A DNA stretch of 64,000 nucleotides from Leucoraja erinacea (Eukaryota). Below, one piece after another: positions 54 through 62,733 of the stretch (the stretch's first letter is position 1; each line of letters opens with the position of its first letter). The translations under genes were made by a program, and so were the position numbers. The stretch is from the NCBI RefSeq assembly GCF_028641065.1, contig NC_073404.1, forward strand, positions 3,844,001 to 3,908,000, read 5' to 3'. The notes under the pieces were generated by a model, which was not told the origin of the DNA, did no database searches, and saw nothing but the letters and a program-made list of their open reading frames with translations.

Positions 54-344
54 GCTCCTCTGTGGATATTTTCCAATATGTAGACGGGAAACACGAGGAA
101 TTGGAATGCGAAATCAGCCGGTATTCCACACACAACCACCATGTTGACTGGCCCCACCAGGGTGCAGAATCACCGGGGAAACGATGGTTCACCATGACTC
201 TGAAGCACAGACACGGCAAGTTCATCACAACCAGCTTCATGAGAGAACTAAAACCACCTGATGATGAGGCCAAGGAACAGATTGAAGCACAGACCGATGA
301 GGACACTTCACCCATTGGAAACACGGACACCCTCATCATTCAAG
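54..344 (+). CDS. TAPBPL: Tapasin-family (tapasin-related/tapasin-like) gene, internal exon encoding part of the N-terminal domain; upstream exons lie outside the window
   Basis: Polypyrimidine tract plus cag (51-53) and donor gtaacg at 345; phase 1-1. Encodes SSVDIFQYVDGKHEELECEISRY...W...WFTMTLKH...TLIIQ. The CEISRY...WF pattern is typical of TAPBPR/tapasin. The symbol denotes the family, not proven orthology. Confidence 0.85.
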
Positions 345-501
345 GTAACGTTTTAACACTTGAGGCGACTAAAGAAGACACCGCCATCTTGCTCAAAACG
401 ACACAAGAAAAGACAGGTGTTTTTAAACCATGCATATTTTAGTTTTAATCAATAGTAAATCGAAAGATTAGTTTTAACCAATTTAGATTTAACCAATTCT
501 A

Positions 502-956
502 AATGTCATATGCTGAGAGAATGGAGCAGCTGGGCTTGTACACTCTGGAGTTTAGAAGGATGAGAGGGATTCTCATTGAAACATATAAGATTGTTAAGGG
601 CTTGGACACACTTAGAGGCAGGAAACATGTTCCCGATGTTGGGGGGAGTCCAGAACCAGGGGCCACAGTTTAAGAATAAGGGGTAAGCCATTTAGAACGG
701 AGACGAGGAAACACTTTTTCTCACAGAGAGTGGTGGGTCTGTGGAATTCTTTGAATCAGAGGGCGGTGGAGGCAGGTTCTCTGGATAATTTCAAGAGAGA
801 GCTAGATAGGGCTCTTAAAGATAGCGGAGTCAGGGGATACGGGGAGAAGGCAGGAACGGGGTACTGATTGGGGATGATCAGCCATGATCACATTGAATGG
901 CGGAGCTGGCTCGAAGGGCCAAATGGCCTGCTCCTGCACCTATTGTCTATTGTCTA
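502..956 (+). mobile_element. CR1/HER1-like LINE 3' fragment
   Basis: LGLYTLEFRRMRG..IETYKI-type ORF2 end with a (ctattgt)n tail. Confidence 0.88.
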
Positions 957-1377
957 AAACTGCACAGTGGCACAGTGGTAGTGTGTTTGCGTCACAGCGC
1001 CGGACACCCAGATTCGATCCTGATTATGGGTGCTGTCTGTACGGAGTTTGCACGTTCTCCCTGTGACTGCGTGGGTTTTCCCCGGGTGCTCCGGGGTCCT
1101 CCCACACTCCAAAGACGTACAGGTTTGTAGGTGAATTGGCTTTGGTAAATAATTGTAGATACATACAGGAAGCACCCAGATTCAGGATCGAAACCTGTGT
1201 CCATGGCACTGTAAGGCAGCAACTCTGCTGTTGTGCTGCTCTGCTATTAGTGGGGTTAGGTTTATTATTGTCATGTGTGCCAAGGTACAGTGAAAAGCTT
1301 CGTTGTGCTTATTCAGACAATTCACAACTACAAATCTAGTCAAACTCAAGTACAATAGATAGAGCAAAGCGCAAGAT

Positions 1378-2012
1378 TCATAGCAAAAGGATTTGAGTAT
1401 AGGAGGAGGGAGGTTCTATTGCAGTTGTACAGGGTCTTGGTGAGACCACACCTGGAGTATTGCGTACAGTTTTGGTCTCCAAATCTGAGGAAGGACATTA
1501 TTGCCATAGAGGGAGTGCAGAGAAGGTTCACCAGACTGATTCCTGGGATGTCAGGACTGTCTTATGAAGAAAGACTGGATAGACTTGGTTTATACTCTCT
1601 AGAATTTAGGAGATTGAGAGGGGATCTTATAGAAACCTACAAAATTCTTAAGGGGTTGGACAAGCTAGATGCAGGAAGATTGTTCCCGATGTTGGGGAAG
1701 TCCAGGACAAGGGGTCACAGCTTAAGGATAAGGGGGAAATCCTTTAAAACAGAGATGAGAAGAACTTTTTTCACACAGAGAGTGGTGAATCTCTGAAACT
1801 CTCTGCCACAGAGGGTAGTCGAGGCCAGTTCATTGGCTATATTTAAGAGGGAGTTAGATGTGGCCCTTGTGGCTAAGGGGATCAGAGGGTATGGAGAGAA
1901 GGCAGGTACGGGATACTAAGTTGGATGATCAGCCATGATCATATTGAATGGCGGTGCAGGCTCGAAGGGCGAATGGCCTACTCCTGCACCTAATTTCTAT
2001 GTTTCTATGTTT
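1378..2012 (+). mobile_element. CR1/HER1-like LINE 3' fragment
   Basis: [19 protein letters not shown]...RRLRGDLIETYK with a (tttctatg)n tail. Near-identical copies at 20435-21066 (+) and ~46481-47255 (-). Confidence 0.92.
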
Positions 2013-2888
2013 CTATACATACAGAATATAGTTCTCAGCTTTGTAGCGCATCAGTTCCATAGACAAAGTCCAATGTCCCCAATGGGGAATCGGACAGTAC
2101 CCTAGCTGATGGAAGGGCCGTTCAGAAGCCTGATAACAGAGGGGAAGAAGCTGTTCCCGAGTCTGGTGGTGCGCGATTTCAAGCTTTATTTTTCCCGTGG
2201 GAAAATCCCGTGGGATCACGACTTTGTTTTTGTTTTTTGTTTTTTTAATTTATTGGAAGCAGTGTACACAAATATAAACAGCGGCATATGTCATAATACA
2301 GTTATTGTACAGCTTCAATTTTAATTTTTCGCTAAAAGTTGAGAGGAAAGAAGAGAGAGAAAGCAAGAGAGGGAAAAGGTGGAATGTGCAAGGATAGAAC
2401 CCCTAGACTACCAAATTGGTGAAGTCAAAGAGTGAGTAAGTAAAAGAAATAAGGAAGACGTAGAGAAATAAAACGACCAAAACAGAAAGAAAAACAAAAG
2501 GCGATGATATACCTGCCTCGTATCCCTCCCCACCCATCACCCAACCCATAATTAGATTTAACTCCAACATTATGTTGCACCACACTATCCTTGTAATGGA
2601 GACAGAGGGGACACGTCTCCCCCATGTTTTGAGAGGTGGAAGACATCCCCCCCAAGTTTTTGTAAACCGGATTTTAAAACCCGGTGAAACCTCCGCTCTC
2701 TACGAGACAGTGGGGGTGGGACTGATGTTCGAGGGCGGTGATTGGAGGAGGGAGACGTGGCACAGACCTGCGCTTCATCCGCAGCCAGGATGATCCCGGC
2801 CGGCTCTCCGGCGCTGTCCTGTCCCCTCCCGAGCGCCCCCCCCGTGGGTGGCCAGAGACGTCGGCAGCAAAGATCCTCCGCTATAGGA

Positions 2889-3088
2889 TGTCAAGAAGGA
2901 ACTGCAGATGCTGGAAGATCGAAGGTACACAAAATTGCTGGAGAAACTCAGCAGGTGCAGCAGCATCTATGGAGCGAAGAAAATAGGCAGCGTTTCGGGC
3001 CGACGGGTTTCGGCCCAAAACGTCACCTATTTTCTTCGCTCCATAGATGCTGCTGCACCCGCTGAGTTTCTCCAGCAATTTTGTGTAC
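2889..3088. mobile_element. Palindromic Penelope pLTR-derived short element with target-site duplication
   Basis: Two inverted arms (gctggagaaactcagc.ggtgcagcagcatctatggagcgaag and its reverse complement). Flanking 17-bp direct repeat cctccgctataggatgt at 2875-2891 and 3088-3104. Confidence 0.8.
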
Positions 3089-3784
3089 CTCCGCTATAGG
3101 ATGTTTGGTCGGGAATCAGACGGGCCAGTGCAGAGAAACAGCGCTAAACCCAGCTCAACTCTGCCTGTCCTGCCAGGTGAGCCTAAAGCCGTCCAGGACT
3201 TGCGGGAAATATAGCCAGCGTGGAGAAGCAGCGCTGGTGTCCCGTCAGTCTAGGCAGGGCTGTAGTTAACCCGGTGAGACAGGCAGAGTTGAGCTGCATT
3301 TAGCGCTGGATTGAGCCTCCGAAGCCTCGTGCGCGTGTGTGTATGTGTGCGCGCATGTGGCCGCCAAAACATTATGTCCCCCGGACCCCTCCATGTTTTG
3401 ATAGCGAGTTCCGCTCTTGAATGTATCAATGAATGGTGTCCATGTCTTCGAAAAATGCTCGGGTTTTTCTGCTAAGACGAGTCTCATATTTTCAAGATGT
3501 AGCGTCTCGGACATGTTTGTAATCCACATGTTGAGCGTAGGGGCAGATGTATGTTTCCAAAATTAGAGTATTAGTTTTTTTGGGAGAAAGACTTTAATTG
3601 CAAGTTTGAAATATTGGAGCCCTCAATGACACAATTGTTTTTACAATGCGAGTTTCCATAACCTGTGGTTTAAGAACATGGAACTTTGAGTAGTACAGCC
3701 CAGGAAAGGGCCCTTTGGCCCACAATCCCTGCGCCGAACATGATGCCAAGTTAAACTAATCTCCTCTGCCTGCAATTTCAGGAA

Positions 3785-4075
3785 AGTTTAGAGATACAGC
3801 ACGAAAACAGGCCCTTCGGCCCACCGACCAGCGATCCCCGCACATTAATACTATCCTACACCCACTAGGGACAATTTTTACATTTACCAAGCCAATTAAC
3901 CTACAAACCTGCACGTCGTTGGAGTGTGAGAGGAAACTGAAGATCTCGGAGAAAAGGTCACGGGGAGAACGTACAAACTCCATACAGACAGCACCCGTAG
4001 TCGGGTTCGAACCTGTGTCTCCGTGCTGCAAGCGCTGTAAGGCAGCAACTCTGCCGCTGAGCCACCGTGGCTGCC
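3785..4075 (-). mobile_element. HE1-like V-SINE (other minus-strand copies ~4785-5305, 8726-9012, 11505-11792, 12803-13085, 45380-45676, 49605-49920, 50310-50612)
   Basis: Reverse complement of the A/B box, V-core and tail consensus. Confidence 0.85.
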
Positions 4076-5033
4076 CCAAGATGCATCTCCCTCCACTCCC
4101 TGCATGTTCGTGTACCTATCCAAAGGCCTCTTGAACACCACTATTGTAAATGCCTCCATCACCAGCCCTGGCAACGGGTTCCAAGCACCCACCACTCACA
4201 GCACAACACATCTCCTTTAAACTTTGCCCCTCTACACCTTGAAGCTAATGACCTCTCCTATTAGATTTTCCCATCCTGGGATAAAGGTTGTGAGTGTCTA
4301 CCCCATCTACGTCTCGTAATTCGACACACTCTACTTCTATCAGGTCTCCCCGCAACCACAGTGTTGCAGATGACACAATCCATATCTGTCCGACCTCCCT
4401 CTGTGGCTAATACCTACAAATCCAGGCAGCGTTCTGGTATACCCCATCTGCAAAGTCACCGCGTGGCAGAGGCTTTGCCGAGGTGCCGTGGCCGCGGTGC
4501 CCGCCCGGAGGACATGAAGGCTCAGCGAACCGTGGTGGATCGAGGGCCCACTGGACCCTCCTGGAGGGCCGGCGAGCAGACCGGCTGCGGGAGGGCATGC
4601 ATGGCCTAGACGGGGGAGTGGCCGCTGGAGGCCCTGCAGCAGCCAGGGGCTCGGCTGGACCGGGGACCGCTCCAAGAGGCCCAGCACGTGGACCGCACAC
4701 GGCCTACAGCGGTGGAGCAGCGGAAAAGGTCACCATGGCTACCAATATAGTTGTGATTTACTATTGAAACCAAAAGTTGATGTTATTTTAGTTTTAGTTT
4801 AGAGATACAGCACGGAAACAGGTCCATTGGCCGTGACCGCACCGACCAGCGATCCCCGCACACTAGCACAATCCCACACACACTAGGGACAACTTACAAT
4901 TTGTCTTCAAACTTTTTTCGTCTTTAGAGCTTGGGGGGGAAACTGGGGATCCCGGAGAAAACCCACGCAGGTCATGGGTCCGTACAGACAACAACACCCA
5001 TAGTCAGGATCGAACCCGGGTTTCCTGCGCTGG

Positions 5034-5279
5034 AAAGGGCCTGTCCCACTTGCCGATTTTTTTCGGCGAACGTTGTCATCATTGACTGACGAATCAGGTC
5101 ACTGAGCACGTCGCGGCGTGACGAGGCTTGATGACGTATTGACGAGCGGGGCCTCCTCAAGTGTCGCAACATTTTTTTGGTCTGGATTTTGAAATGTTCA
5201 AAATCTTTTGGTGACCCTGATATGTCAGTCAATGATGCCGGCAGTCTCCGAAACAATCACCAAGTGGGACAGGCCCTTT
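5034..5279. mobile_element. MITE of the agggcctgtcccactt family (PIF/Harbinger or Kolobok type), nested in a SINE
   Basis: TIR aaagggcctgtcccacttg/caagtgggacaggcccttt; it splits a SINE at gcgctg|taaggcagc. Confidence 0.85.
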
Positions 5280-5552
5280 AGGCAGCAACTCTACCGCAGT
5301 GCCCTTCACCCTCAGTCTTATGTGTCAAATTACGTTGCCTAAGAATGCTGATGCCAAACCTTTATGCAGAACCAAAATGAGCTCAGTCCAGTCTTAGCTC
5401 AAGGCAATATTTGTGGAACGGATATGGAAATAATGCATCGGACTGGATGACTCAACTCTAAACTGGACGTGATTCATTTTGATCGTGTCCGCTCATCATT
5501 ATTCATATCCATTTTCAGTATTCTGCCCTGTTTTCCCAAAACATCCCAACGC

Positions 5553-6075
5553 ATCTGATCGGGAAGCACCGCAGCCTGGTTTGGGAACAGCTCCATCCAA
5601 AAAATTGGCAGTGAATTGTGGATGCAGCCCAGACCATCACACAAACCAACATCCCTGTCATTGATTCCATCTACACCTCACGCTGCCTCGGCAAGGCCAG
5701 CAGGATCATCAAGGACCAGTCTCACCCCGGCCACTCCCTCTTCTCCCCTCTCCCATCAGGCAAGAGGTACAGAAGTGTGAAAACGCACACGTCCAGAATC
5801 AGGGACAGTTTCTTCCCAGCTGTTAGCAGGCAACTGAATCATCCCATCACAACCAGAGAGCAGTGCTGAACCACAGTCTACCTCTTTGGTGACCTTCGGA
5901 CTATCCTTGATCGGACTTTGCTGGCTTTACCTTGCACTAAACCTTATCATGTATCTTATACACAGTACATGGATCAATGGTAATCATGTATTGTCTTTCC
6001 GCTGACTGGTTAGCACGCAACAAAAGCTTTTCACTGTACCTCAGTACACGTGACAATAAACTAAACTAAACTAAA
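5553..6075 (+). mobile_element. Rex/Babar-like LINE 3' fragment (related: ~12150-12548 +, ~17665-18145 -, ~38880-39150 -, ~63580-64000 +)
   Basis: KASRIIKDQSHPGHSLFSPLPSGKRYRS..T.TSR.RDSFFP. Confidence 0.8.
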
Positions 6076-6709
6076 CTTCACTAACCGATTCACCTCCACC
6101 CCATTGCAGACATTAGACTTTGTCTGTGGAGCTGGTGCACTACAATGCTGAGAACTACTGTATATTATACACTCTGTGCTTATCCCCTTTGCTCTACCTG
6201 TTGTATTTAAGTTTGACCTGATTGTGTTCAGAGATATACAGCATGGAAACAGGTCCATTGGCCCAACATGCCCATGCCGACCAACATGCCCCATATAACC
6301 TGTACAGTATTCAACTGCCTGCGTTTGGCCCATATCCCTCTAATCCATGTGCCTGTCTAAATGTTTTTTGAACATTGTGATAGTACCTGCCTCAACTAGC
6401 TCCTCCGACAGCTTGTTCCATATACATACACCCCCCCCCCCCCCCCATCACATTTAACCTATGCCCTCTGGTTCTTGGTTCCTCTTCTCTGGGTAAAGAC
6501 CACATCTATTCCTCTTATGATCTTATACACACCTCCATATCCTTCCTGTCTTGGGGTGACCAGAACTGTAGATCAAAGGCATCGAAGAGTGCAAAGAGAG
6601 ACACAAAAGCTGGTGTAAGTCAGCAGGTCTTGTGGGAAACGATAGCAGGCATCACAGTGGAGCAGATGATAGCGAGCCAGTGATCTGTGTTCAATGATGT
6701 GAGGATGTG

Positions 6710-7200
6710 TAGGGAAGGAACTGCAGATGCTGGTTTACACCAATGATAGACTCAATGTGCTGGAGTAACTCAAGCATGACAGGCAGCATCTCTGGAAAAA
6801 AAGGACTAGGTGATGTTTCGGGACTGAGAGTCGGGGGAGGGGGAAACTAGGGGTATGAAAAGGTACAGGACAAATTAGAGCCGCCACTGATGGCAAAGGA
6901 AAAGTTGTCCATGGTTGGCTGTGGAAGAAGTGATAACGAAAGGATACAGGGAAGCGAACAGTGGAACTAGCAGGATGGCTAGGGTGGGGGAGGGGAGAGA
7001 GAGAGAGAGAGGGAGTATCAATGTTAGAGATATCAATGTTCATACCGCTCAGTTGTAAGCTGCCCGAGCGAAATATGAGGCGCTGTTCCTCCATTTTGTG
7101 TGTGTGTGGCCTCACTCTGACAATGGAGGAGGCCCAGGACAGCAAGGTCCGTGTGGGAATGTGAAAGGGAGTTAAAGTGTTGGGTAACTGGGAGATCGTG
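6710..7200 (-). mobile_element. Penelope-like 3' fragment
   Basis: Encodes MEEQRLIFRSGSLQLSGMNIDISN, matching the 55343 ORF C-terminus, followed by the same terminal repeat. Confidence 0.75.
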
Positions 7201-7649
7201 TAGGCCCCAGGCCAGAGATGCATCCTGACCCGCTGAGTTACTCCAGCTTTAGTGTCTGTCTTTGATGTAAACCTGCATCGGCAGTTCCTTCCGACACATT
7301 TTACCCGCACTCTTACATCCCTCTGATGTACAACACTCCCCAGAGCCCTGCCATTCACGGTATAGGTCCTGCAATGGTTAGACTTTCCAAAACGCAACAC
7401 CTCCCACTTATCTGCATCAAACTCCATTAACCATTCCTCAGCTCGCCTACCCAACTGATCAAGATCCTGGTGTGGTATGCATAGTATCACCTGATCAGTT
7501 TGGATAGCGTGCAATACCAAGTTTGTCACTGTGGTACACATGACGATAATAAACATAGCACTAACACCTAATATCATTTACCCATTTAGAAATGCAGTAA
7601 TTTTTTTTTGACCTCAGCAGGGAATAGCGGAGGAATGATTTAACACCAA

Positions 7650-8000
7650 TCCAGGACCGCTGCCGATTCTCCGGCACCCTCGATTCCCGGGCCTTGCCGT
7701 ATTATCCGTTTTGCCAGATCGCCAGAGGTCGCGGCCCGCAAAGCCGGCCCCGGAAGTCGGCCATGGGAACGGATCTGCCGGCTCCGGCCAGGCCAGAGTT
7801 CCAGAACCCCGGCCGCAGGGGGGCAAATCTGACCCGGCGATCGGCCGCGGAAGTCCCCCCCCCGATGAGATTGAGATTGGCCGCTTCACCGATAGGGGCC
7901 ACGTGTGCAAGGGGGATTTCAAGTGCGCTCTCGTGGTTTTGTCCGGATTAAGGAGGTGCCGGTCCATCAGTTGCTGGAAGATCGGGGGTGGAGCTGTATT
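7650..8000. mobile_element. GC-rich dispersed element (related copies ~21400-21710 and ~31540-31750)
   Basis: Shared core gaagtcggc.atgggaacggatctgccggctccggc and terminal-like ccggcaccct; superfamily unassigned. Confidence 0.55.
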
Positions 8001-8356
8001 GCAAAAGAATTAAGGCCTAGTCGGCAATAAATAGGTAGACTACAATGGTAAGCATCGGAGGTAAATTAAATGTGTGGGAAGGAACTGCAGATGCTGGGTA
8101 AAATCGAAGATAGACACAAAAAGCTGGAGTAGGTCAGCGGGTCAGACAGCATCTCTGGAGAAAAGGAATAGGTGATGTTTCGGGTCGACCCTTCTTCAGA
8201 TCTGGCTCTACCAGAAACGACACCTATTCCTTTTCTCCACAGATGTTGCCTGACCCGCTGAGTTACTCCAGCATTATGTGTCTATCTAAGGTCAATGAAA
8301 CTTGTGCGATATCATTAACCATCGATGTGACCCCGCTGTTTCTTTCCACTTGCCAG

Positions 8357-8695
8357 TGAAATACATTGTCCGCACACGAACTCCATTGGTCAGAAGCAAA
8401 ATGAAGCAAGATGTCGTCCTGGACTGCGGCTTCAAGATTGACCACAGGAAGGACTTCTACGTTGACTGGAGGTATCAGCACAAAGGCGTGAGGAAAAAAC
8501 TGTTTATCTACAATGGGAAGAACCAGCAGACCGAACAGATTGAGAAGGGAGTTGGAACATTCTTGGATCAGATCGGGGACGGGAACGCATCCATCCGCAT
8601 AAGAAATGTGGACATTAGCAGTGAAGGATCCTACACCTGCTTGGTGTATGTCCCTCCACTATTTGGAACACACACCATCAATCTGGAGATATGGG
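8357..8695 (+). CDS. TAPBPL: Tapasin-family gene, IgV-like domain exon
   Basis: ttgccag acceptor and G|gtaag donor, phase 1-1. VKYIVRTRTP...VVLDCGF...VDWRYQHKG...GNASIRIRNVDISSEGSYTCLVY has the canonical IgV C/W/YxC residues and the tapasin-like LDCGF and WRxQxxG motifs. Confidence 0.92.
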
Positions 8696-9725
8696 GTAAG
8701 TTGCCAATTTTGATGACACGACCAGTTTAGTTTAGAGATACAGCACGGAAACAGGCCCTTCGGCCCACTAAATCCACGCCGACCAGCGATCCCTGCACAC
8801 TAGCACTTACCCTACATACTCTAGGGACAATTTACACTTATATCAAGCCAATTGATATCAAACCTGTAGGTCTTTGGAGTGTGGGAGGAAACCGAAGATC
8901 TTGGAGAAAATCCTCATGGGGAGAACGTACAGACAGCGCCCGTAGTCAGGATCGAACCCAGGTCTCTGGCGCTGTGAGGCAGTAACTCTACCGATGCGCC
9001 ACCGTGCCACCCTTGAGTATTGAACTTAGATTAATATTTTTGGGGTACTGAAGACATTAGCAGAAAATCAGGAGGAAATCTGCTGGATGGGCGATGTTTT
9101 TGGTCATGACCCTTCTTCAGGCGGGTCCTATCTCTGAAGAAGGGTCCCGAACCATAATATCACCTATCCTTAAAGATAGATACAAAAAGCTGGAGTAACT
9201 CAGCGGGGCAGGCAACATCTCTGGAGAGAAGTAATAGGTGATGTTTAAGGTTGAGACCCTTCTTCAGATTCTCGAACCGAAACGTCACATATTCCTTTTC
9301 TCCAGAGATGTTGCCTGTCCCTCTGAGTTACTCCAGCTTCTTATGTCTCTCTTCAGTGTAAACCAGCATCTGCAGTTCCTTTTGTTTAAGAAAATCGACT
9401 GGGCTTATTTTCACTGGAATTTAGAAGCATGAGAGGGGTTCGTATAGAAACATACTTAAGGGAACATATTGAATGGCCATGTGAGTGAGTTTTAATCCTA
9501 CAAAATGTGTACGTTTTAAACCTAAAACGTTTCTATGTCTTAAAACTGCAATGTTTCTACGTTTTAAAACTACAAAGTTTCTCTGTTTCTCGTCCCCTTT
9601 GATGTCACGTTTTCACACCTTGCACCTCCTTATCTCTGTGTCTCCCTCTGCCCCGACTCTCGGTCTGAAGATGGGTCTCGACCCGGAACGTCGCCCATTC
9701 CTTCTCTCCGGAGATGGCGTGCCTG

Positions 9726-10117
9726 TCATAGAAACATAGAAACATAGAAAATAGGTGCAAGAGGAGGCCATTCGGCCCTTCGAGCCAGCACCGCCATTGT
9801 GATCATGACTGATCGTCCCCTATCAATAACCCGTGCCTGCCTTCTCCCCATATCACTTGACCCCACTAGCCCCTGGAGCTCTATCTAACTCTCTCTTAAA
9901 TCCATCCAGTGACTTGGCCTCCACTGCCCTCGATGGCAGGGAATTCCATAAATTCACCACTCTCTCAGTGAAAATATTTTTTCTCACCTCAGTCTTAAAT
10001 TACCTCCCCTTTATTCTAAGACTGTGGCCCCTGGTTCTGGACTCGACCAACATTGGAAACATTTTTCCTGCATTTAGCTTGTCCAGTCCTTTTATAATTT
10101 TATATGTTTCTACTATA
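9726..10117 (-). mobile_element. CR1/HER1-like LINE 3' fragment
   Basis: ETYKIIKGLDKLNAGKMFPMLVESRTRGH, with a (catagaaa)n tail on the plus strand. Confidence 0.85.
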
Positions 10118-10175
10118 AGATAACTCCTCATCCAGTCCCGCTGACTCACTTCATTGTGTTGTCTCCCCTGTGCAG

Positions 10176-10502
10176 AGGCGCCCACAGTGTCCCTGAGCCA
10201 CAGCTCGCTCTCGTTGAGGGAGGGTGACGAGCAGAAGCTGGCGTGCGGCGCGGAGCGGTACTACCCGCTGGACGTGACGGTGCGCTGGCAGAAGCAGCAG
10301 GGCGGGGAGCGCCTTCTGCCCAACTACCTGTCCAACACCGTCTTATCCCCACACCAGCCGAACAGGGATGGCACCTTCAACATGACCAGCTACTTCCGCT
10401 TCACCGCCTCCCTCAAGGACAACGGCGTGACGTTTATTTGTCACGTCGACCACGTCAGCTTGGAGAAGACGATCAAACGCTACGTCCATGTAAAAGTGCA
10501 AG
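10176..10502 (+). CDS. TAPBPL: Tapasin-family gene, IgC1 domain exon
   Basis: tgcag acceptor and G|gtaaac donor, phase 1-1. EAPTVSL...LACGAERYYPLDVTVRW...DGTFNMTS...FICHVDHVSL contains the C1-set CxVxH motif and YYPLDV. Confidence 0.92.
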
Positions 10503-10542
10503 GTAAACAATGAGCAGACATTTTAAATACTGTGTGGAAACG

Positions 10543-10980
10543 GGATGGCGGGACTGTCATATGCTGAGAGAATGGAGCAGCTGGGCTTGTACACTCTGGA
10601 GTTTAGAAGGATGAGAGGGAATCTCATTGAAACATATAAGATTGTTAATGGCTTGGACACGCTAGAGGCAGGAAACATGTTCCCGATGTTGGGGGAGTCC
10701 AGAACCAGGGGCCACAGTTTAAGAATAAGGAGTAAGCCATTTAGAACGGAGACGAGGAAACACTTTTTCTCACAGAAAGTGGTGAGTCTGTGGAATTCTC
10801 TGCCTCAGAGGGCGGTGGAGGCAGGTTCTCTGGATGCTTTCAAGAGAGAGTTAGATAGGGCTCTTAAAAATAGCAGTCGGGATATGGGGAGAAGGCAGGA
10901 ACGGGGTACTGATTGGGGATGATCAGCCATGATCACATTGAATGGGATGAATGGCCTACTCCTGCACCTATTGTCTATTG
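10543..10980 (+). mobile_element. CR1/HER1-like LINE 3' fragment
   Basis: MAGLSYAERMEQLGLYTLEFRRMRG... followed by a tail. Confidence 0.88.
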
Positions 10981-12641
10981 AAACTGGCCCTTCGGCCCAC
11001 ACGGACCATCCATCACCATCCACCATCAAGGCAGCACAGCGACACAGATCTGGTTTGATCCAAAGGCGTGCGGGTGTGTAGGTTAATTGTTCTTTAAGCT
11101 GTCCCCCTAGTGTGTAGGGAGTGAACGAGAAAGTGGGATAACATGGAATGAGCGTGAATGGGTGATCGATGGTCGTAGTAGACCAGGTGGGCCGAGGTGA
11201 ACCATCATCTGCAGTTCCTTGTGTCGAGAACTGACAAAGCCGCACGTCTTTGGGAAGTGGGAGGAAACCAGAGAATCCAAAGGAAATCCACACGGTCACA
11301 GGGAGAACGTGCACACTCCACTCAGACAGCACCCGTGGTCAGCATCAAACCCGGGTCTCTGGTGCTGTAAGGCAGCAACTCTACCAGATACACCACTGTG
11401 CTGCCCCTATTGTTAAGAATGAGTGCGGGAACTATTTGTTTCTGGTGGTGGATGCATGAAGGCTGAACAATATCAGGAGACAATTCCTAACCATGTCTCT
11501 GGGCAGTTTAGTTTAGAGAGACCACTTGGAAACAGGCCGACCGAGTCTGCACCGACCAGCGATCCCCGCCCTCTAACACTATCCTACACACACCAGGGAC
11601 AATCTACATGTACACCAAGTAAAAATGAACCTGTAAACCTTTGGAGTGTGGGAGGAAACCTAAGATCTCGGAGAAATCCCACGCAGGTCGCAGGGAGAAC
11701 GTACATACTTAGTACAGACAAGCACCCGTAGTCAGGAGTGAACCCGGGTCTCTGCCGCTGTAAGGCAGCAACTCTACCGCTGTGTGTCACCCTATTCCAG
11801 GACGGATGTGGAGTTTTTGGAGCGGGTGCAGAAGGGGTTTTACCGGAGTGATGCCTGGATTAGGGGGTTTATTTTTTTCTAGAGCTTCGGAGGTTGAGGG
11901 GAGACCAGATAGAGGTATATAACATCATGAGACGTGTGGATTGGGTAGACAGTCTATGAAGGGAATGTCCAAAGATGAACGCCATACCTTTCAGGTGAGT
12001 AGGGGAAAGGTTTAATGGAGTTGTGTTGGGCATGTTTTTTTACACAGTGGGTGCCTGGAACATGCTGCCAACGGTGGCGGAGGCAGATGGCAGCTGGCAT
12101 TTAAGAGGGGCACATGGATGTGCATGGAATGGAGGGATATGGATCACGTTGATGAACTGTACACTGCAAGGGCCAGGAAGCGAGCGGGCAAGATCATCTC
12201 TGACCCCTCGCACCCTGGCCACAAACTCTTTGAATCACTTCCCTGTGGAAGGCGAGTCCGGACTGTCAAAGCTGCCACAGCCAGACATAAAAACAGTTTT
12301 TATCCACGAGTAGTTGCTCTACTCAACAGCCAAAAAACTGTAGCCTCCCTTTGAACTGGTATTTTGTTGGTTCACATGCTTGATCAATGGTGTTTTATCA
12401 TTAATGTGTTATTATTATTATTATTATTAATGTTTCGTGTTTTCTGAGTCATTCGTAACTGTCACCGTATGTCATGTTGATACTTGTGGGCGGAGCACCA
12501 AGGCAAATTCCTTGTATGTGAATACTTGGCCAATAAACTTACTTACTTGCGTGCAGCCAGGGGCGATTAGTTTAACATCATCATGTCCAGCATGGGCTGA
12601 AGTCTCAAAGCAGTAATGCTCAATATTTTATTTTCCCACAG

Positions 12642-12734
12642 CACGACCCCAGATATTATTTTATATCTTAGTTTTAATATTGGTCCTATTCTTCTGCACT
12701 ATTGTGATCATCCTACTAATTCACTTGAATAAAG
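12642..12734 (+). CDS. TAPBPL: Tapasin-family gene, transmembrane exon
   Basis: ttttcccacag acceptor and G|gtgagt donor; 93 nt, phase 1-1. Encodes ARPQILFYILVLILVLFFCTIVIILLIHLNK, a single hydrophobic span. Confidence 0.88.
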
Positions 12735-13146
12735 GTGAGTGCTTTCTGTTTTATTTTACATGTTATTAATGAGTGCGGGGTGATCCCATCTCTAGAGGAT
12801 TCTAGAGAGACCGCGTGGAGTCAGGCCCTTCAGCCCACCGATTCCGTGCAGGCCAGCGATCATCCCTTTCACTGGCACTATCCTACACATTAGGGACAAT
12901 TTACAAAAGCCAATTAGCCTACAAACATCCACATCTTTGGAGTGTGGGAGGAAACTGGAGAAAACACACACGGTCACGGGGAGTACATGCGAACTCCACA
13001 CAGACAGCATCCGTAGACAGGGTCGAACCCGAGTCTCTGGCGCTGTCAGGCAGCAACTCAACCGCTGCTGCTCAACCTTGCCGCCCTTTGTTGTTGTATA
13101 GTCTGGGGTTTGTTCTGTACAAGATGACGTCACCTGATGTCTATTG

Positions 13147-13450
13147 GGGCGGCCCGGTGGCACAGCGGTAGATTTGCGGCCTTATAGCGCCAGAGCCCCG
13201 GGTTCGATCCCGACTACGGGTGCCTGCTGTACGGAGTTTGTACATCCTCACTGTGCCCGCGTGGGTTTTCTCCGGGTGCTCCGGTTTCCTCCCACACTCC
13301 AAGACGTACACGTTTGTTGGTTAATTGGCTTCAGTGCAGATTGTAAATTGTGCCTAGTGAAGAGGATAGTGTTAGGGTGCGGGGATCGCTGGTCGATGGG
13401 CCGAAGGGCCTGTTTCCACGCTGTATCTCTAATCTAAACTAAACTAAACT
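13147..13450 (+). mobile_element. HE1-like tRNA-derived V-SINE, full length
   Basis: A box ggtggcacagcggta, B box ggttcgatcc, core gggttttctccgggtgctccggtttcctcccaca, LINE-like tail gggccgaagggcctgtttcc and (aaact)n. Confidence 0.88.
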
Positions 13451-13646
13451 ATTCATAGCCAATGTGTTTCCATTCCTGTAGCTTCAGTGGAGAGCAAGGA
13501 AAGCGTTTGTGCACATAACCGTGTGAATTTTACCCTGTAGTTTATCCATTTTGAAAAAGTGTTTTGAACAACGCTAGCAATGATGATGTATCAGTGATGT
13601 GGTGGTGCTGACATGTTGTAATGATGCTGTATTCTTTGCTTTGCAG

Positions 13647-13663
13647 TTATGGACAAAAACAAG
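13647..13663 (+). CDS. TAPBPL: Tapasin-family gene, 17-nt cytoplasmic micro-exon
   Basis: ttctttgctttgcag acceptor and AAG|gtaaga donor; phase 1-0. Encodes VMDKNK and joins the TM exon in frame to the KKPY* exon. Confidence 0.75.
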
Positions 13664-13968
13664 GTAAGAAAAATATTGTTTCAATATTACATTTATTCAT
13701 GCAGGAAAACAGTACAAAACATGATATGTTCCTAAGTCACTGGAGCAGTAGTGGACATTTGACCAATCTAGTCTACTCCCCCATTCAATCATGGCTGATC
13801 TTTCTTTCCCTCTCAACTCCATTCTTTTGGCCTCTCCCTATAACTCCTTACTCCCGTACTACTATAAATATCCAATGACTTGGCCTCCACAGCTGTCTGT
13901 GGCAATGAATTCCACAGATTGACCACCATCTACCAAATAAATTCCTCCTCATCTCCTTTCTAAAGGTA

Positions 13969-14600
13969 CAGTGCATTCAGAAAGTATTCAGACCACTTCA
14001 CTTTTTCTACATTTTGTTACGTTATAGCCTTATTTTAAAATTGATTAAATTTGTTTTTTTTTATCATCAATCTACACACAATACCCCAGAATGAAGAAGT
14101 GAAAACAGGTGTTTATAAATTTTTGCAAAGTAATTAACTGAAATATCACATTTACGTAAGTAATCACACTCTTTGCTATGACACTCAAAATTGAGCTTCG
14201 GTTCATCCTGTTCCCATCGATTATCCTTGAGATGTTTCTACAACTTGATTGGAGTCCACCAGTGGTAAATTAAATTGATTGGACATGATTTGGAAAGGCA
14301 CACACACCCGTCTATATAAGATCCCACTGTTGACAGTGCATGTCAGAGCATAAACCAAGCCATGAAGACGAAGGTACACAAAAATGCTGGAGAAACTCAG
14401 CGGGTGCGGCAGCATCTATGGAGCGAAGGAAATGGGTGACGTCACTTATCTCCTTCGCTCCATAGATGCTGCTGCACCCACTGAGTTTCTCCAGCATTTT
14501 TGCGTACCTTCGATTTTCCAGCATCTGCAGTTCCTTCTTGAACATGAAGACGAAGGAATTGTCCGTAGACTTCTGAGACAGGATTGTGTCGAGACCACGA
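13969..14600 (+). mobile_element. Tc1-like DNA transposon 5' fragment
   Basis: Begins ta|cagtgcattcagaaagtattcagacc, a Tc1-type TIR after TA. Transposase start MKTKELSVDF*DRIVSR at 14544 (ATG duplicated at 14362). Confidence 0.75.
14372..14544. mobile_element. Palindromic Penelope pLTR-derived short element inserted in a Tc1 remnant
   Basis: Same inverted arms as 2889-3088. Flanking direct repeat catgaagacgaagg at 14361-14374 and 14543-14556. Confidence 0.8.
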
Positions 14601-14924
14601 AGACCCGTTGCCCTGGCAACATTTCAGTGCGGCCTGGCCAAGCGTAGCCGTGGTGACCTCCGTCCGCTGCTCCACCGCTGTAGGCCGTGTGCGGTCCACG
14701 TGCTTGGCTTCTTGGAGCGGCGCCCGGTCCAGCCGAGCCCCAGGCTGCTGCAGGCCCTCCAGCGGCCACTCCCCCGTCTAGGCCGTGCAATCCCTCCCGC
14801 AGCCAGTCCGCTCGCCGGCCCTCCAGGTGGGTTCCATGCGCCCTCGATCCGTGGCGGGCGAGGCAGGGGGGTTCCGGTCCATGGCGTGGGTTTTCCAGTC
14901 ACGTTTCCTTTGTCTCCCCTGCAG

Positions 14925-14939
14925 AAGAAGCCGTACTGA
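14925..14939 (+). CDS. TAPBPL: Tapasin-family gene, terminal coding exon (KKPY-stop)
   Basis: Strong acceptor tttcctttgtctcccctgcag followed by AAG AAG CCG TAC TGA, giving a C-terminal KKXX motif. Confidence 0.78.
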   Translation, partial: KKPY

Positions 14940-15109
14940 GCCCAGGGAAGAGCACTCCAGGCAGGATGCAGCTGCTGAGGTGTCCTTGGAACATGTTCCA
15001 GTGCCTTCTCGCCAATGAACCTCTTCAAAACCCTTGGCTGTCGGTAAATGCATGGAGATTGGACGCACCGGCAACCCACATGGACCCATTGAGGCAAATC
15101 ACCCAGTTA

Positions 15110-15320
15110 TTTGTTTACCGGGGGAGGAATATTGACCAGGACACCAGACCCACTCATTGGGGCTTCACATCCACTCGACCCCCCCAGTGAAATGGAAAGT
15201 GGAGCCTCCATTTAAAGTTCCACCCAATGGGCATTTAATGAGGATTCTTACTGACGGTGTCTTGAAGTGAACCTGAACCTACAACCTTCCGAATTTGAGG
15301 CAGCAGCTTTAGCCATGGAG
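15110..15320 (-). mobile_element. Old Deu-domain (SacSINE/AmnSINE-like) SINE remnant in the tapasin-like 3' UTR; second copy at ~55930-56095
   Basis: The minus strand shows a tRNA-like ggttgtaggttcag head and ctggtgtcctggtcaatatt, which resembles the Deu core. Recognised from memory. Confidence 0.5.
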
Positions 15321-58970: not shown

Positions 58971-59036
58971 ATCTCGGCCCGGTGAGTGCTGAATGTGTGT
59001 GTGTGTCTTTCAATGATCAGTCAGTCGACTAATTAC

Positions 59037-59171
59037 CTTGAAGGACTCCAGGAAGCCTCCATGACTGTCATTCTCCATCTTTTCTTCGTCAGGACCCAGC
59101 CCCAACATGGCCTGTGATTGGTTGTGGAGGTCCTCGTACAGGTTGTCGAGTAGCGCTGCCCGCGTGCGGTT
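59037..59171 (-). CDS. RAP1GAP2: RAP1GAP2 exon
   Basis: cag/gtaatt; 135 nt. Encodes [58 protein letters not shown] and HGGFLESFK fit RAP1GAP2 better than RAP1GAP. Confidence 0.95.
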
Positions 59172-60401
59172 CTGGACAGGGAAGACCAAAAACACATCGT
59201 TCACAACCTGCTCTGCAAGGCCTACTTCACCGAGGTCCCACGATCAAAAACAGCCCCCGCCTCTGGCCGGGCCAAACAGCCAGCCCATCGAGTCCACTCC
59301 ACCATTCAACAATGGCTGATCTATCTCTCCTCCTAATCCCATTTTGCTGCCTTCTCCCCATAACCCTTGACACCCGTTCTAATCAAGAATTTGTCTATCT
59401 TTGCCTTAAAAATATCCACTGACTTGGCCTCCACAGCCCTCTGTAGCAATTAGTTCCACAGATTTACTACCATCTATGAGTAAAGAAGTTCCTCCTCACC
59501 TCATTTCTAAAAGAGCATCCTTTAATTCTGAGGCTGTGACCTCTGGTCCTAGACTCTCCCACCAGTGGAAACATCCTTGGTCAATCCATGCCTTTCATTA
59601 TTCTGTAAGTTTCAATGAGGTTCCCCCTCAACCTTCTAAACTCCAGCGAGTAGAGGCCCAGTGCTGTCAAACACTCATCATAGATTAACCCACTCATTCC
59701 TGGGATCATTCTTGTAAACCTCCTCTGGACCGTCTCTAGAGCCAGCACGTCTCTGTACCGATGGGCTGCGCGCGGGAGAAGCTGCCGGACGGGCGTGGGC
59801 TGCGGGTCATACCCTGGCGGAAGGCCTGGCTCGCCCGCCGCGGAGATGGCAAACCCGCCTGAAGTGGAAGGCTGACGAGCCCGGCCCCGACTATGTTTCC
59901 CTGAGGAAGAACGTATCTTCAGGAAGGAGATGAGGTGGAATTTCTTCCTAAGTTCATAAGTGATGGGAACAGAATTTGGCCGTTCGGCCCATCTAGTCAA
60001 TTTATGAACAGCAGGGCCATGGTGCTTTGGAAAGGAAAGTAAAAGAACCTAATCCTGAAGGCCCCAGTTCTGGGCAACATATTATGGGGAAGATGTTGTC
60101 AAGCTGGAAAGGGTGCAGAGAAGATTTACAAGGATGTTGCCAGGACTAGAGGGTCTGAGCTATAGGGAGAGGTTGAGTAGGCTGGGACTCTATTCCTTGG
60201 GGCACAGGAGAATGAGGGGCGATCTTAATAGAGGTGTACAAAATCATGAGAGGAATAGATTGGGTAGATGCAGAGTCTCTAGCCCAGAGCAGGGGAATCG
60301 AGGACCAGAGGGCATAGGTTTAAGGAAGGAGGGGAAAAGATTTAAAAGGAATCTGAGGGGTAGCTCTGTTCTCCGGAACAACCTCGGACATGCATCCTTA
60401 C

Positions 60402-60488
60402 CTCCAGCTTTGCAAACTTCTCCGACTTGTAGCAGGCCGACTCTGCGTTGATGAGTTTAGTCAGCAGAAACTCTCTGAACTCCGGGCC
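60402..60488 (-). CDS. RAP1GAP2: RAP1GAP2 exon
   Basis: cag/gtaag; 87 nt. Encodes [29 protein letters not shown], a conserved RapGAP helix. Confidence 0.95.
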
Positions 60489-62733
60489 CTGGGCAAATAT
60501 AAGCAAACGTTTGTGAGTTTGGTTTCCCGCTTTCAATGCATTTGTGCGTAGCTGCGGGTACACTTGGCACAGTGTGCCCAGTGTCTGTCGGGTACCCAGC
60601 CGGACAGTATCAGCACTAGAGCGCCTGGTCCCAATACCCCACCCAACACTCAACCCTTCCCTCCTTCAGGCATCACGTTTAACGTGAGACGGGCAAGATT
60701 TAATGGGAAGATTGTTGTCGGGAACTTTGGGAATGATAGGGACGTTGAGTAGGTTACAGTGTGGTTAACCCTGCAGTTAGGGTGGCCAACTTGCTCACTC
60801 CCAAATAAGGGACAAAAGGTCAAAATATGGGGCAAATGCCCGATGGCGATTTGTTGACCGACTTGGCCGTGGCTGGGTGAATGATGAGTAGGCCCGGGTG
60901 CTGGACTGCACACAAAGCCCAGCCGGCGGGCCAGCTGAGGAGTTATGGCCCGCGTGACGTCGTGCACAAATTCCGGCGCCCCATCCAACCCGTGAACCGA
61001 TGATCGGCCATGAGAAGGAGGGGTGGTGGTGTCGGTGGTAAGCGAAGGTCGAACATCTTACCACCGAGGGGGGGGAGTCCTTTGCAGTTCGGTCTAGGTT
61101 CTTATCTGTTGCAATCTTGAGAGCACAGCTGCCCTTTGTCACTGTGTTTAGCAGGCTAGTCTCCCGAAGGTTAACAGAGGGGGGGGGCTCCATTTGGCGA
61201 GTGGAGTGTGGACATTGATGGCGTCTACATGTTAGATATATGGGAGAGAGATTCTCCACAAAATAAGAAAGGTAAGATTAACATTGACTCTGGGGAAAGA
61301 CAAAGAAGGAAGGTGACAGAAACACTGATGGTTTGTTTCAACTCCACAAGTGTCCACTTGGACACGCTAGAGGCAGGAAACATGTTCCCGATGTTGGGGG
61401 AGTCCAGAACCAGGGGCCACAGTTTAAGAATAAGGAGTAAGCCATTTAGAACGGAGACGAGGAAACACTTTTTCTCACAGAGAGTTGTGAGTCTGCGGAA
61501 TTATCTGCCTCAGAGGGCGGTGGAGGCCAGGTTCTCTGGATGCTTTCAAGAGAGAGCTAGATAGGGCTCTTAAAGATAGCGGAGTCAGGGGATATGGGGA
61601 GAAGGCAGGAACGGGGTACTGATTGGGGATGATCAGCCATGATCGCATTGAATGGCGGAGCTGGCACGAAGGGCCAAATGGCCTACTCCTGCACCTATTG
61701 TCTATTGTCACTGAGTCCTGACCATATAAAAATACTACAGTTACTGCAGCTTATTGAATCAGTTTGGGCTTGCTCACACAGCTTCCCGATGTACATTGTA
61801 ACGCCTTTTAATAAGCCAACTGGTTCGATAGACTCGCCACTGATGTACGTGCTATTTGATTTTGTGTCTGGGTCTATCTGAGTAAAGCCAGATAGAGTAC
61901 AGGTAAAGTACAAAATATACCTCCTGCAAACCTGAAGGCCAACCCTTTCACACAGAGGGCAGACTAGAGGATCTGAGCTGGAGGGAAAGGGTGGACGGGC
62001 TTGGATATAACTCCTTGGAGCGCAGGCGGATGAGATGATCTTGTATAGGTGTGTAAGATCATGAGGTATATTGACAGGGTGAATGCCTCGGCTGAATAGT
62101 CTTTTGTCCAGAGTAGGGGAATCAAGAACTAGACAACACTGCTCAACTCTGCCTGTCCCGCCTGGTTAACCGACGGCCCTGGACTGACGGGACCGGCCCG
62201 GAGCAGTGGAGTTAGCGCTCCTTCTCCGCGTTGGCTGTAAGCCTGGGCCGCCACTGCTCCAGGCCGGTGCTCCATCAGTCCAGGGTCACCCCGGACATCT
62301 CCGACCGCCCCCAGACAGGGGTGGGACATTCGGGAGGGGACGGGGACGGTCCGGTAACAATTCAGCAGCGCTTGCAGCGCCGGAGACCCATCTTCGACCC
62401 TGACTGCGGATGAAACGCAGGTCTGTATACACGCAGCAGCACAGCTGCCGAGAATGTTTATCGCGAGTGACCTTTGACAAATCCCATGATTCCTTGCGGT
62501 TTTTGGAATACCGAACTTGCTTATACACTTGTACTGTATCTGAGATGCTCATCTAATATGTATCTAAGTGCTTACAGTATGTAAAGTGATACGTGTACTG
62601 AACTGGTTACGGAAATGGATTTCACGGTACCTCGGTACGCGAGGCAAATAAAGCACCAGATCCAAACCGTCTCTCATCCCACTGTTGTTCAATATCCAAA
62701 AAAGCTAACTGCGCATGAATTTGGCGATCTTAC

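What the first reader, a model, noticed from the sequence alone, without database searches (positions are those of the whole stretch)
54..14939. Tapasin-family protein with mixed tapasin/TAPBPR features: KKXX tail but no TM lysine and no free loop cysteine
Seen: the spliced product has CEISRY and YYPLDV, a Trp 14 residues after the N-domain Cys, an NAS sequon in the IgV domain, a TM segment with no charged residue, only one Cys in the N-domain exon, and a C-terminal ...NKKKPY*. Known (human, from memory): tapasin has KKXX, a TM Lys for TAP binding and Cys95 for ERp57; TAPBPR has CEISRY/YYPLDV and Cys94 for UGT1 binding, but no KKXX. Inference: this is an ER-retrieved MHC class I chaperone or peptide editor independent of TAP and ERp57. 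It may belong to the little-studied third tapasin-like lineage reported in non-mammalian jawed vertebrates.
Basis: partly seen in the sequence, partly recalled or inferred. Interest (0 to 1): 0.75.

Follow-up and report, generated by a model that had tools for sequence, protein, structure and literature searches.

The report
Skate TAPBPL, the third tapasin branch
This is an intact skate gene of TAPBPL, an already described third branch of the tapasin family that placental mammals lack; it likely chaperones MHC class I molecules inside the endoplasmic reticulum, a role that remains untested.

Summary
Six exons in the window plus two upstream splice to an intact 431-residue protein ending NKKKPY, identical to RefSeq XP_055513516.1; 11 of 11 listed transcript-sized Logan proteins end the same way. 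It is not a tapasin/TAPBPR mosaic but an ordinary orthologue of TAPBPL (Grimholt 2018). It nests with frog, bird and marsupial TAPBPL at 100/100 support, and grouping with TAPBPR or tapasin is rejected (p-AU 0.001 each). A separate true tapasin with the membrane lysine sits elsewhere in the genome. KPY tail and lack of the lysine are lineage-wide; CEISRY and YYPLDV are not TAPBPR-specific. Additions here: 10 named cartilaginous fishes plus this gene form a TAPBPL subclade; none of 13 cartilaginous-fish rows has the published TAPBPL free cysteine; the MHC-contact glutamine (TAPBPR Q272) is replaced in 29 of 31 TAPBPL; a tandem IRF/ISRE-like element lies 66-81 bases before the start codon. Likely function: interferon-inducible, COPI-retrieved class I chaperone outside the TAP complex (about 0.55, untested). 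New member of a known, functionally uncharacterised lineage.

The parts
54..344 (+). Exon 3, N-domain: C2 in CEISRY (107), Trp at 149-151, WFTMT (Met where many TAPBPL have a free Cys), no HADC Cys. Exons 1 and 2 and the IRF/ISRE-like element lie upstream of the window: G000:C28:3841271-3841304, 3842638-3842817 and 3841190-3841205
   Evidence: upstream parts
8357..8695 (+). Exon 4, IgV domain: C3-C4, D-W-R-Y-Q (TN6 part), NAS sequon (8584), Thr at the Q272/Q261 site
10176..10502 (+). Exon 5, IgC1 domain: C5-C6, YYPLDV (10259), second sequon NMT (10379)
12642..12734 (+). Exon 6, membrane segment without charged residue, one Cys
13647..13663 (+). Exon 7, 17-base cytoplasmic exon (VMDKNK)
14925..14939 (+). 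Exon 8 coding part KKPY*, completing the dilysine motif (K at -3, -4, -5)

Best explanation
The gene is the skate orthologue of TAPBPL, the third tapasin-family lineage, and its product likely acts as an interferon-inducible chaperone for MHC class I heavy chain/beta-2-microglobulin in the ER and early secretory pathway, outside the TAP complex. Shown: intact 8-exon gene, spliced transcripts, lineage membership, predicted tapasin/TAPBPR fold, dilysine tail, no membrane lysine, no unpaired lumenal cysteine. Inferred: (1) IRF/ISRE-driven induction; (2) COPI retrieval through KKKPY; (3) no docking on TAP, which would be left to the separate tapasin; (4) the N/IgV and IgC faces cradle peptide-receptive class I as tapasin and TAPBPR do; (5) because the Q272/Q261 and I261/L250 sites differ, it would prefer a different set of class I clients (possibly nonclassical) or hold rather than edit them; (6) no disulphide to ERp57 and no C94-type link to UGT1.
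For: Tree of 47 proteins: window protein inside a 28-row TAPBPL group at 100/100, with TAPBPR (14) and tapasin (5) as separate groups; AU tests reject joining the cartilaginous-fish subclade to TAPBPR (p 0.00098) or tapasin (p 0.0010). The group contains P0051 and P0099, which by eye match the frog and chicken TAPBPL printed in PMC5824609. AlphaFold2 model pLDDT 89, pTM 0.79; the ten best Foldseek ranks are all tapasin or TAPBPR entries, E 7e-25 to 9e-22. Dilysine motif (KKxx or KxKxx) in 27 of 31 TAPBPL rows, KPY end in 28 of 31, against 2 of 12 and 0 of 12 TAPBPR. A true tapasin with LYGALK is on G000:C1010. TN6 residues (E205, R207, Q209, Q272 in TAPBPR, PMC9956121) read D, R, Q, T here. 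IRF-type element before this gene and the same core 205 bases before the skate tapasin ATG; salmon TAPBPL genes rise 1.5-3 log2 after IFN-gamma (PMC7573153).
Against: I found no experiment on the function of any TAPBPL (PMC7573153 calls it unknown; PMC9372762 says no structural information). The Q272/Q261 glutamine, invariant in 12 of 12 TAPBPR and 4 of 4 tapasin rows, is kept in only 2 of 31 TAPBPL; the I261/L250 site is Thr here; R207 is absent from all 7 tetrapod TAPBPL rows, so the class I binding face is eroded in part of the lineage. Skates also change the TC2/TC3 stretch to HQP. How Pro and Tyr at -2 and -1 affect retrieval is not known to me (one search gave nothing specific). Four of 31 rows lack the dilysine end.
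Confidence: 0.55

Rival explanations
1. TAPBPL is a dedicated chaperone for a nonclassical or otherwise different client (nonclassical class I lineages, W-category molecules or another Ig-domain protein) and does not serve classical class I at all.
For: Lineage-wide replacement of the Q272/Q261 glutamine (29 of 31) and loss of R207 in tetrapod members; the genome carries several divergent class I genes (15 MHC_I exon matches); the lineage was kept beside tapasin and TAPBPR from cartilaginous fish to marsupials.
Against: D-W-R-Y-Q, the His of TC2/3 (31 of 31) and the IgV sequon are kept in the skate protein; human TAPBPR itself is modelled with a nonclassical client (PDB 7rno title), so client breadth need not exclude classical class I.
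Confidence: 0.25
2. TAPBPL is the tapasin of an alternative peptide-loading complex and docks on TAP together with duplicate calreticulin/ERp57 proteins (speculation in PMC5824609).
For: Shares with tapasin the dilysine tail, the Trp after C2 (31 of 31 TAPBPL, 3 of 4 tapasin rows) and the IgV sequon; same promoter element as skate tapasin.
Against: No Lys at the tapasin membrane site, and the acidic stretch that precedes the membrane helix in tapasins is absent; the genome has a canonical tapasin with both; the gene lies beside EXO5 and a Rap-GAP gene, not beside antigen-processing genes.
Confidence: 0.1
3. It reaches the cell surface and acts as a B7-like ligand, as proposed for human TAPBPR.
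For: The IgV-IgC pair is B7-like: B7-H3 and B7-H6 rank with TAPBPR in the sequence search; a paper proposes such a role for human TAPBPR (PMC8103088, search listing and abstract start only).
Against: Conserved dilysine tail in 27 of 31 members; the full-length fold matches tapasin/TAPBPR ahead of B7-H6.
Confidence: 0.07
4. It is a TAPBPR or tapasin orthologue, or a recombinant of the two, that gained or lost features in skates.
For: RefSeq names it 'tapasin-related protein'; no separate TAPBPR gene was found in this assembly in 4 searches.
Against: Both placements rejected by AU test; identity 27-32% to TAPBPR and 29-32% to tapasin rows, against 42-52% to sturgeon, coelacanth and chimaera TAPBPL; HADC-type Cys in 12 of 12 TAPBPR and 0 of 31 TAPBPL; Heptranchias, Scyliorhinus, coelacanth, lungfish, Acipenser and Rhinatrema each appear in both groups.
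Confidence: 0.02

Closest known systems
TAPBPL (tapasin-like) lineage of Grimholt 2018, PMC5824609
   Same: Same clade; same six structural cysteines, W after C2, VPPLxG in IgV as in fish members, no TM lysine, K/R-K-P-Y tail (gar ends KKKKPY).
   Different: That paper lists bony fish, frog, turtle, birds and opossum but no cartilaginous fish in its alignment (0 hits for 'shark' in the supplement). The skate protein lacks the WFTC free cysteine described there, as do all 13 cartilaginous-fish rows, coelacanth and lungfish.
Tapasin (TAPBP)
   Same: Fold, IgV sequon at the N233-equivalent site, Trp after C2, dilysine tail, IRF-type promoter element.
   Different: About 30% identity, separate clade, no TM lysine, no C95, Q261 site is Thr; the skate has its own tapasin on another contig.
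TAPBPR (human gene symbol TAPBPL, a source of naming confusion)
   Same: Fold, no TM lysine, CEISRY and YYPLDV as in the human protein, D/E-W-R-x-Q.
   Different: About 28% identity, separate clade, no HADC (C94) cysteine for UGT1, has a dilysine tail, Q272 and I261 sites are Thr.

Membership tests
Tapasin family | N-domain fused to IgV, then IgC1, single membrane helix, short tail; three disulphide pairs | tested here: met
   (six lumenal Cys)
TAPBPL (Grimholt 2018) | Clade with frog, bird, turtle and marsupial TAPBPL, apart from TAPBP and TAPBPR | tested here: met
   100/100 support; alternatives rejected; anchors P0051 and P0099 compared by eye with the printed sequences
TAPBPL (Grimholt 2018) | No lysine in the membrane segment | tested here: met
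TAPBPL (Grimholt 2018) | C-terminal KPY with ER retrieval lysines (present in some members per the paper) | tested here: met
   NKKKPY; 28 of 31 end in KPY
TAPBPL (Grimholt 2018) | Extra cysteine in WFTC (described for the lineage, but not a universal and so not a defining trait) | tested here: not met
   The skate has methionine at this site; the Cys is present in only 8 of 31 rows and absent from the paper's own frog, turtle and opossum sequences
Tapasin (TAPBP) | Orthology with tapasin | tested here: not met
   separate tapasin on G000:C1010
Tapasin (TAPBP) | Membrane lysine for TAP | tested here: not met
   K in 3 of 5 tapasins examined, R in 1, Q in 1
TAPBPR | Orthology with TAPBPR | tested here: not met
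TAPBPR | Free cysteine C94 (HADC) needed for UGT1 | tested here: not met
   12 of 12 TAPBPR, 0 of 31 TAPBPL; role from PMC5441866 passages
Tapasin/TAPBPR function | TN6 surface E205, R207, Q209, Q272 | tested here: inconclusive
   D, R, Q, T: two identical, one conservative, one changed
Tapasin/TAPBPR function | Binds class I and catalyses peptide exchange | not testable with these tools
   needs biochemistry
KKxx/KxKxx cargo | COPI-dependent ER retrieval | not testable with these tools
   motif present; localisation untested

The most novel reading that the evidence does not exclude
TAPBPL is an ancient third class I chaperone, present since before cartilaginous and bony fish split, whose reshaped MHC-contact face serves nonclassical class I clients in the ER; placental mammals lost it, and skates and rays, which may have lost TAPBPR, would use it as their only TAP-independent chaperone.
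Probability: 0.12. Interest if true: 0.65.

Novelty: new member of a known kind. Interest (0 to 1): 0.3.

Why it matters
The gene itself is ordinary: annotated in RefSeq and a member of a lineage named in 2018. Its value is modest and comparative. It places TAPBPL in sharks, rays and chimaeras, so all three tapasin branches predate the split of living jawed vertebrates. It suggests that the ancestral TAPBPL had no free cysteine, and it points to one lineage-wide change at an MHC-contact site and an IRF-type promoter element. TAPBPL function is an open question; the skate protein, with an intact dilysine tail and most of the TN6 surface, is a clean candidate for the first binding and localisation tests.

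Tried and rejected
Complex prediction of the ectodomain with three skate class I domains as separate chains, without beta-2m: no verdict, score 0.00, alignments not used; no evidence either way. Sequencing runs: no RNA holder listed for the IgV stretch. Laying four 2026 RNA runs on 13600-15300 was swamped by repeats; the last exon and 3' region had mean depth of at most 2 and the exon 7-8 joint was not among the joints shown (161 not shown), so inconclusive. The N-domain exon alone gave no Pfam or useful PDB hit. A kappa-B-like site upstream is at chance level (3.5 expected per 10 kb) and was dropped. Alternative last exons: 20 acceptor-like sites were listed within 16 kb, and only 14925 gives the end found in homologues. 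Naming an upstream neighbouring ORF (L005:9324-9797) failed. No earlier scan finding matched. Literature on Pro/Tyr after a dilysine motif: nothing specific. Tapasin sampling is thin (5 rows, no mammal), because the search for more gave only one hit.
Full report
Observation. Each has an AG acceptor after a pyrimidine-rich tract, the first five end at a GT donor, and together they give one frame ending NKKKPY*. CEISRY, the Trp 14 residues on, the NAS sequon, YYPLDV, the single Cys of the first window exon and the uncharged membrane segment are all present. Two more exons lie upstream of the window, at G000:C28:3841271-3841304 and 3842638-3842817. The 8-exon product has 431 residues, six lumenal cysteines and one in the membrane segment, and is 431 of 431 identical to RefSeq XP_055513516.1 ('tapasin-related protein', Leucoraja erinacea) from that model's second Met. 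Eleven unnamed Logan proteins in the same cluster sit on 1.5-1.9 kb contigs, far shorter than the 17.7 kb gene, and all 11 end in KKKPY. The tail exon is therefore spliced in. Direct read laying was inconclusive.

What it is. Grimholt 2018 (PMC5824609; abstract, passages, supplement parts 26-27 and passages of part 9 seen) defined TAPBPL as a third branch beside tapasin and TAPBPR, present in bony fish, frogs, turtles, birds and marsupials and lost in placental mammals. It notes no membrane lysine, an ER signal in some members and an extra cysteine. I collected homologues, named them and built a maximum-likelihood tree of 47 rows, chosen from those hits as mostly near-full-length family members; isoforms, near-duplicates, most unnamed fragments and multi-Ig B7-like hits were left out. 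Three groups each form one side of a branch: TAPBPL with the window protein (28 rows, 100/100), TAPBPR (14 rows, 100/100) and tapasin (5 rows, 100/99). Group labels were set from sequence features and source names before the tree was run. The window protein nests as skate within rays, elasmobranchs and cartilaginous fish (11 rows, 100/100). Forcing that subclade with TAPBPR or with tapasin is rejected (p-AU 0.00098; 0.0010). P0051 and P0099 in the group match by eye the frog and chicken TAPBPL printed by Grimholt. Several genera appear in both the TAPBPL and TAPBPR groups. The root was placed on tapasin for display only; the order of duplications was not tested.

The same genome holds a true tapasin on contig C1010, with LYGALK in its membrane exon, which falls in the tapasin group. 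No TAPBPR orthologue was found in four searches. In Verissimo 2023 (PMC10751288; passages, supplement rows and part 96 seen) the region that carries TAPBPR is called fragmented in the sawfish, with CD4 and LAG3 not found, so an assembly gap is the simpler reading. That paper's sawfish 'tapbpl' lies on another chromosome than its a2m and may be the present lineage rather than TAPBPR; I did not test this.

Feature census on a 47-row alignment (31 TAPBPL, 12 TAPBPR, 4 tapasin; this set differs slightly from the tree set). KPY end: 28, 0, 0. KKxx or KxKxx: 27, 2, 3; tetrapod members mostly use KxKxx. HADC-type cysteine (TAPBPR C94): 0, 12, 0. WFTC cysteine: 8 of 31 TAPBPL, none of 13 cartilaginous-fish rows (12 named, 1 unnamed), none in coelacanth or lungfish; Rhinoraja, not in this alignment, has a Cys at another place. 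Trp after C2: 31, 0, 3. CEISRY: 8, 3, 0. YYPLDV: 23, 12, 1. The 'mixture' is thus ancestral family motifs plus normal TAPBPL traits. At the class I contact set TN6 (E205, R207, Q209, Q272; PMC9956121 passage) the skate has D, R, Q, T. The last site is Gln in all 16 TAPBPR and tapasin rows and in 2 of 31 TAPBPL. The I261 site (I261K seen only in a search listing; its role is recalled) is Thr. R207 is kept in most fish TAPBPL and absent in all 7 tetrapod rows.

Structure and regulation. An AlphaFold2 model (pLDDT 89.2, pTM 0.79) has tapasin and TAPBPR entries as its ten best Foldseek ranks (E 7e-25 to 9e-22), ahead of B7-H6; the Atlas also returns tapasin-family clusters first. Upstream of the ATG, at -81 to -66 (G000:C28:3841190-3841205), lies GAAATCGAAAGTGAAA. 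The triple pattern was chosen after seeing it (0.01 expected in 10 kb); the fixed core GAAASYGAAA, an IRF-element consensus recalled from general knowledge, is expected 0.10 times in that 10 kb and occurs in 4 of 63 loci, one of them 205 bases before the skate tapasin ATG. Salmon TAPBPL genes are induced by IFN-gamma (PMC7573153 passages). Neighbours are an EXO5 gene about 5 kb upstream and a Rap-GAP gene downstream on the other strand; no antigen-processing gene was seen among 142 of 308 repeat-poor ORFs scanned over about 200 kb.

Mechanism. Most likely (0.55) the protein is an interferon-inducible type I membrane chaperone, retrieved to the ER by its dilysine tail, that binds peptide-receptive class I/beta-2m through the tapasin-type concave face, without docking on TAP and without a cysteine link to ERp57 or UGT1 (roles of the human residues from PMC5441866 passages). 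The gene, transcript, lineage, motifs and predicted fold are shown; localisation, partners and catalysis are inferred. The absence of C95 says little about ERp57, since non-mammalian tapasins lack it too. The changed Q272 site leaves room for a different clientele (0.25). An alternative TAP-bound complex (0.10), a surface B7-like role (0.07) and a TAPBPR/tapasin mosaic (0.02) are less likely.

Novelty. The lineage is in print, and reviews list three family members in many non-mammalian jawed vertebrates while noting the lack of structural or functional data (PMC9586880 and PMC9372762 passages; PMC9022212 passages use TAPBPL as a synonym of TAPBPR). Four searches of the open library showed no paper that assigns cartilaginous-fish genes to this lineage or tests its function; subscription papers, theses and bioRxiv supplements were not visible, so this is weak evidence of absence. 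Verdict: new member of a known, functionally uncharacterised kind; interest 0.3.

Noticed in passing
G000 whole genome: No TAPBPR orthologue found in four searches with shark and lungfish TAPBPR, although tapasin and TAPBPL were found. Assembly gap is likelier than loss (the matching region is fragmented in sawfish), but no ray or skate TAPBPR was recognised among the named homologue hits either.
   Followed up: partly
G000:C1010:15800-33750 (L023-L024), minus strand: Canonical skate tapasin: membrane lysine, a Gly/Cys-containing insert in the N-domain, IRF-type element 205 bases before the likely ATG; the RefSeq model XP_055486225.1 starts about 70 residues further upstream in a simple repeat and is partial at the 3' end, while a Logan transcript ends EEDLKKKN.
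   Followed up: partly
L002:7190-7270 and G000:C1010:33700-33750: Both the TAPBPL and tapasin upstream regions have CCCGGCTCCAC within about 50 bases after the IRF-type element; could be chance or a shared GC-rich element.
   Followed up: no
window 59000-60500 (minus) and L026:332-586 (minus): Exons of a Rap-GAP family gene downstream, opposite strand. From recall it resembles RAP1GAP2 more than RAP1GAP; not tested.
   Followed up: partly
L002:1439-1954 (plus): 3' part of an EXO5 gene about 5 kb upstream of the TAPBPL start (Pfam Exo5 E 4e-25).
   Followed up: no
L005:9324-9797 (minus): ORF that from recall resembles LIAT1 (C17orf97); unnamed by Pfam and PDB. If right, with a RAP1GAP2 neighbour, the locus would not lie in a classical MHC paralogon, which bears on the proposed whole-genome-duplication origin.
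   Followed up: partly
window 12642-12734: A cysteine in the membrane segment is shared by most elasmobranch TAPBPL (10 of 31 rows at this column); role unknown.
   Followed up: no
window 14925-14939: Pro-Tyr after the lysines is conserved from chimaera to marsupial (KPY in 28 of 31), more than a plain KKxx motif requires; it may tune cycling between ER and Golgi.
   Followed up: partly
G000:C18:41.24-41.52 Mb and C17:15.9-16.3 and 19.9-20.1 Mb: Clusters of C1-type immunoglobulin-domain exons; those on C18 look B7-H6-like.
   Followed up: no
G000:C1159, C1416, C732, C1256, C633, C1104: Class I heavy-chain exons on small contigs; the C1159 gene appears to keep the classical peptide-anchoring residues (positions recalled) and has only about 80 bases between its alpha-1 and alpha-2 exons.
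   Followed up: partly
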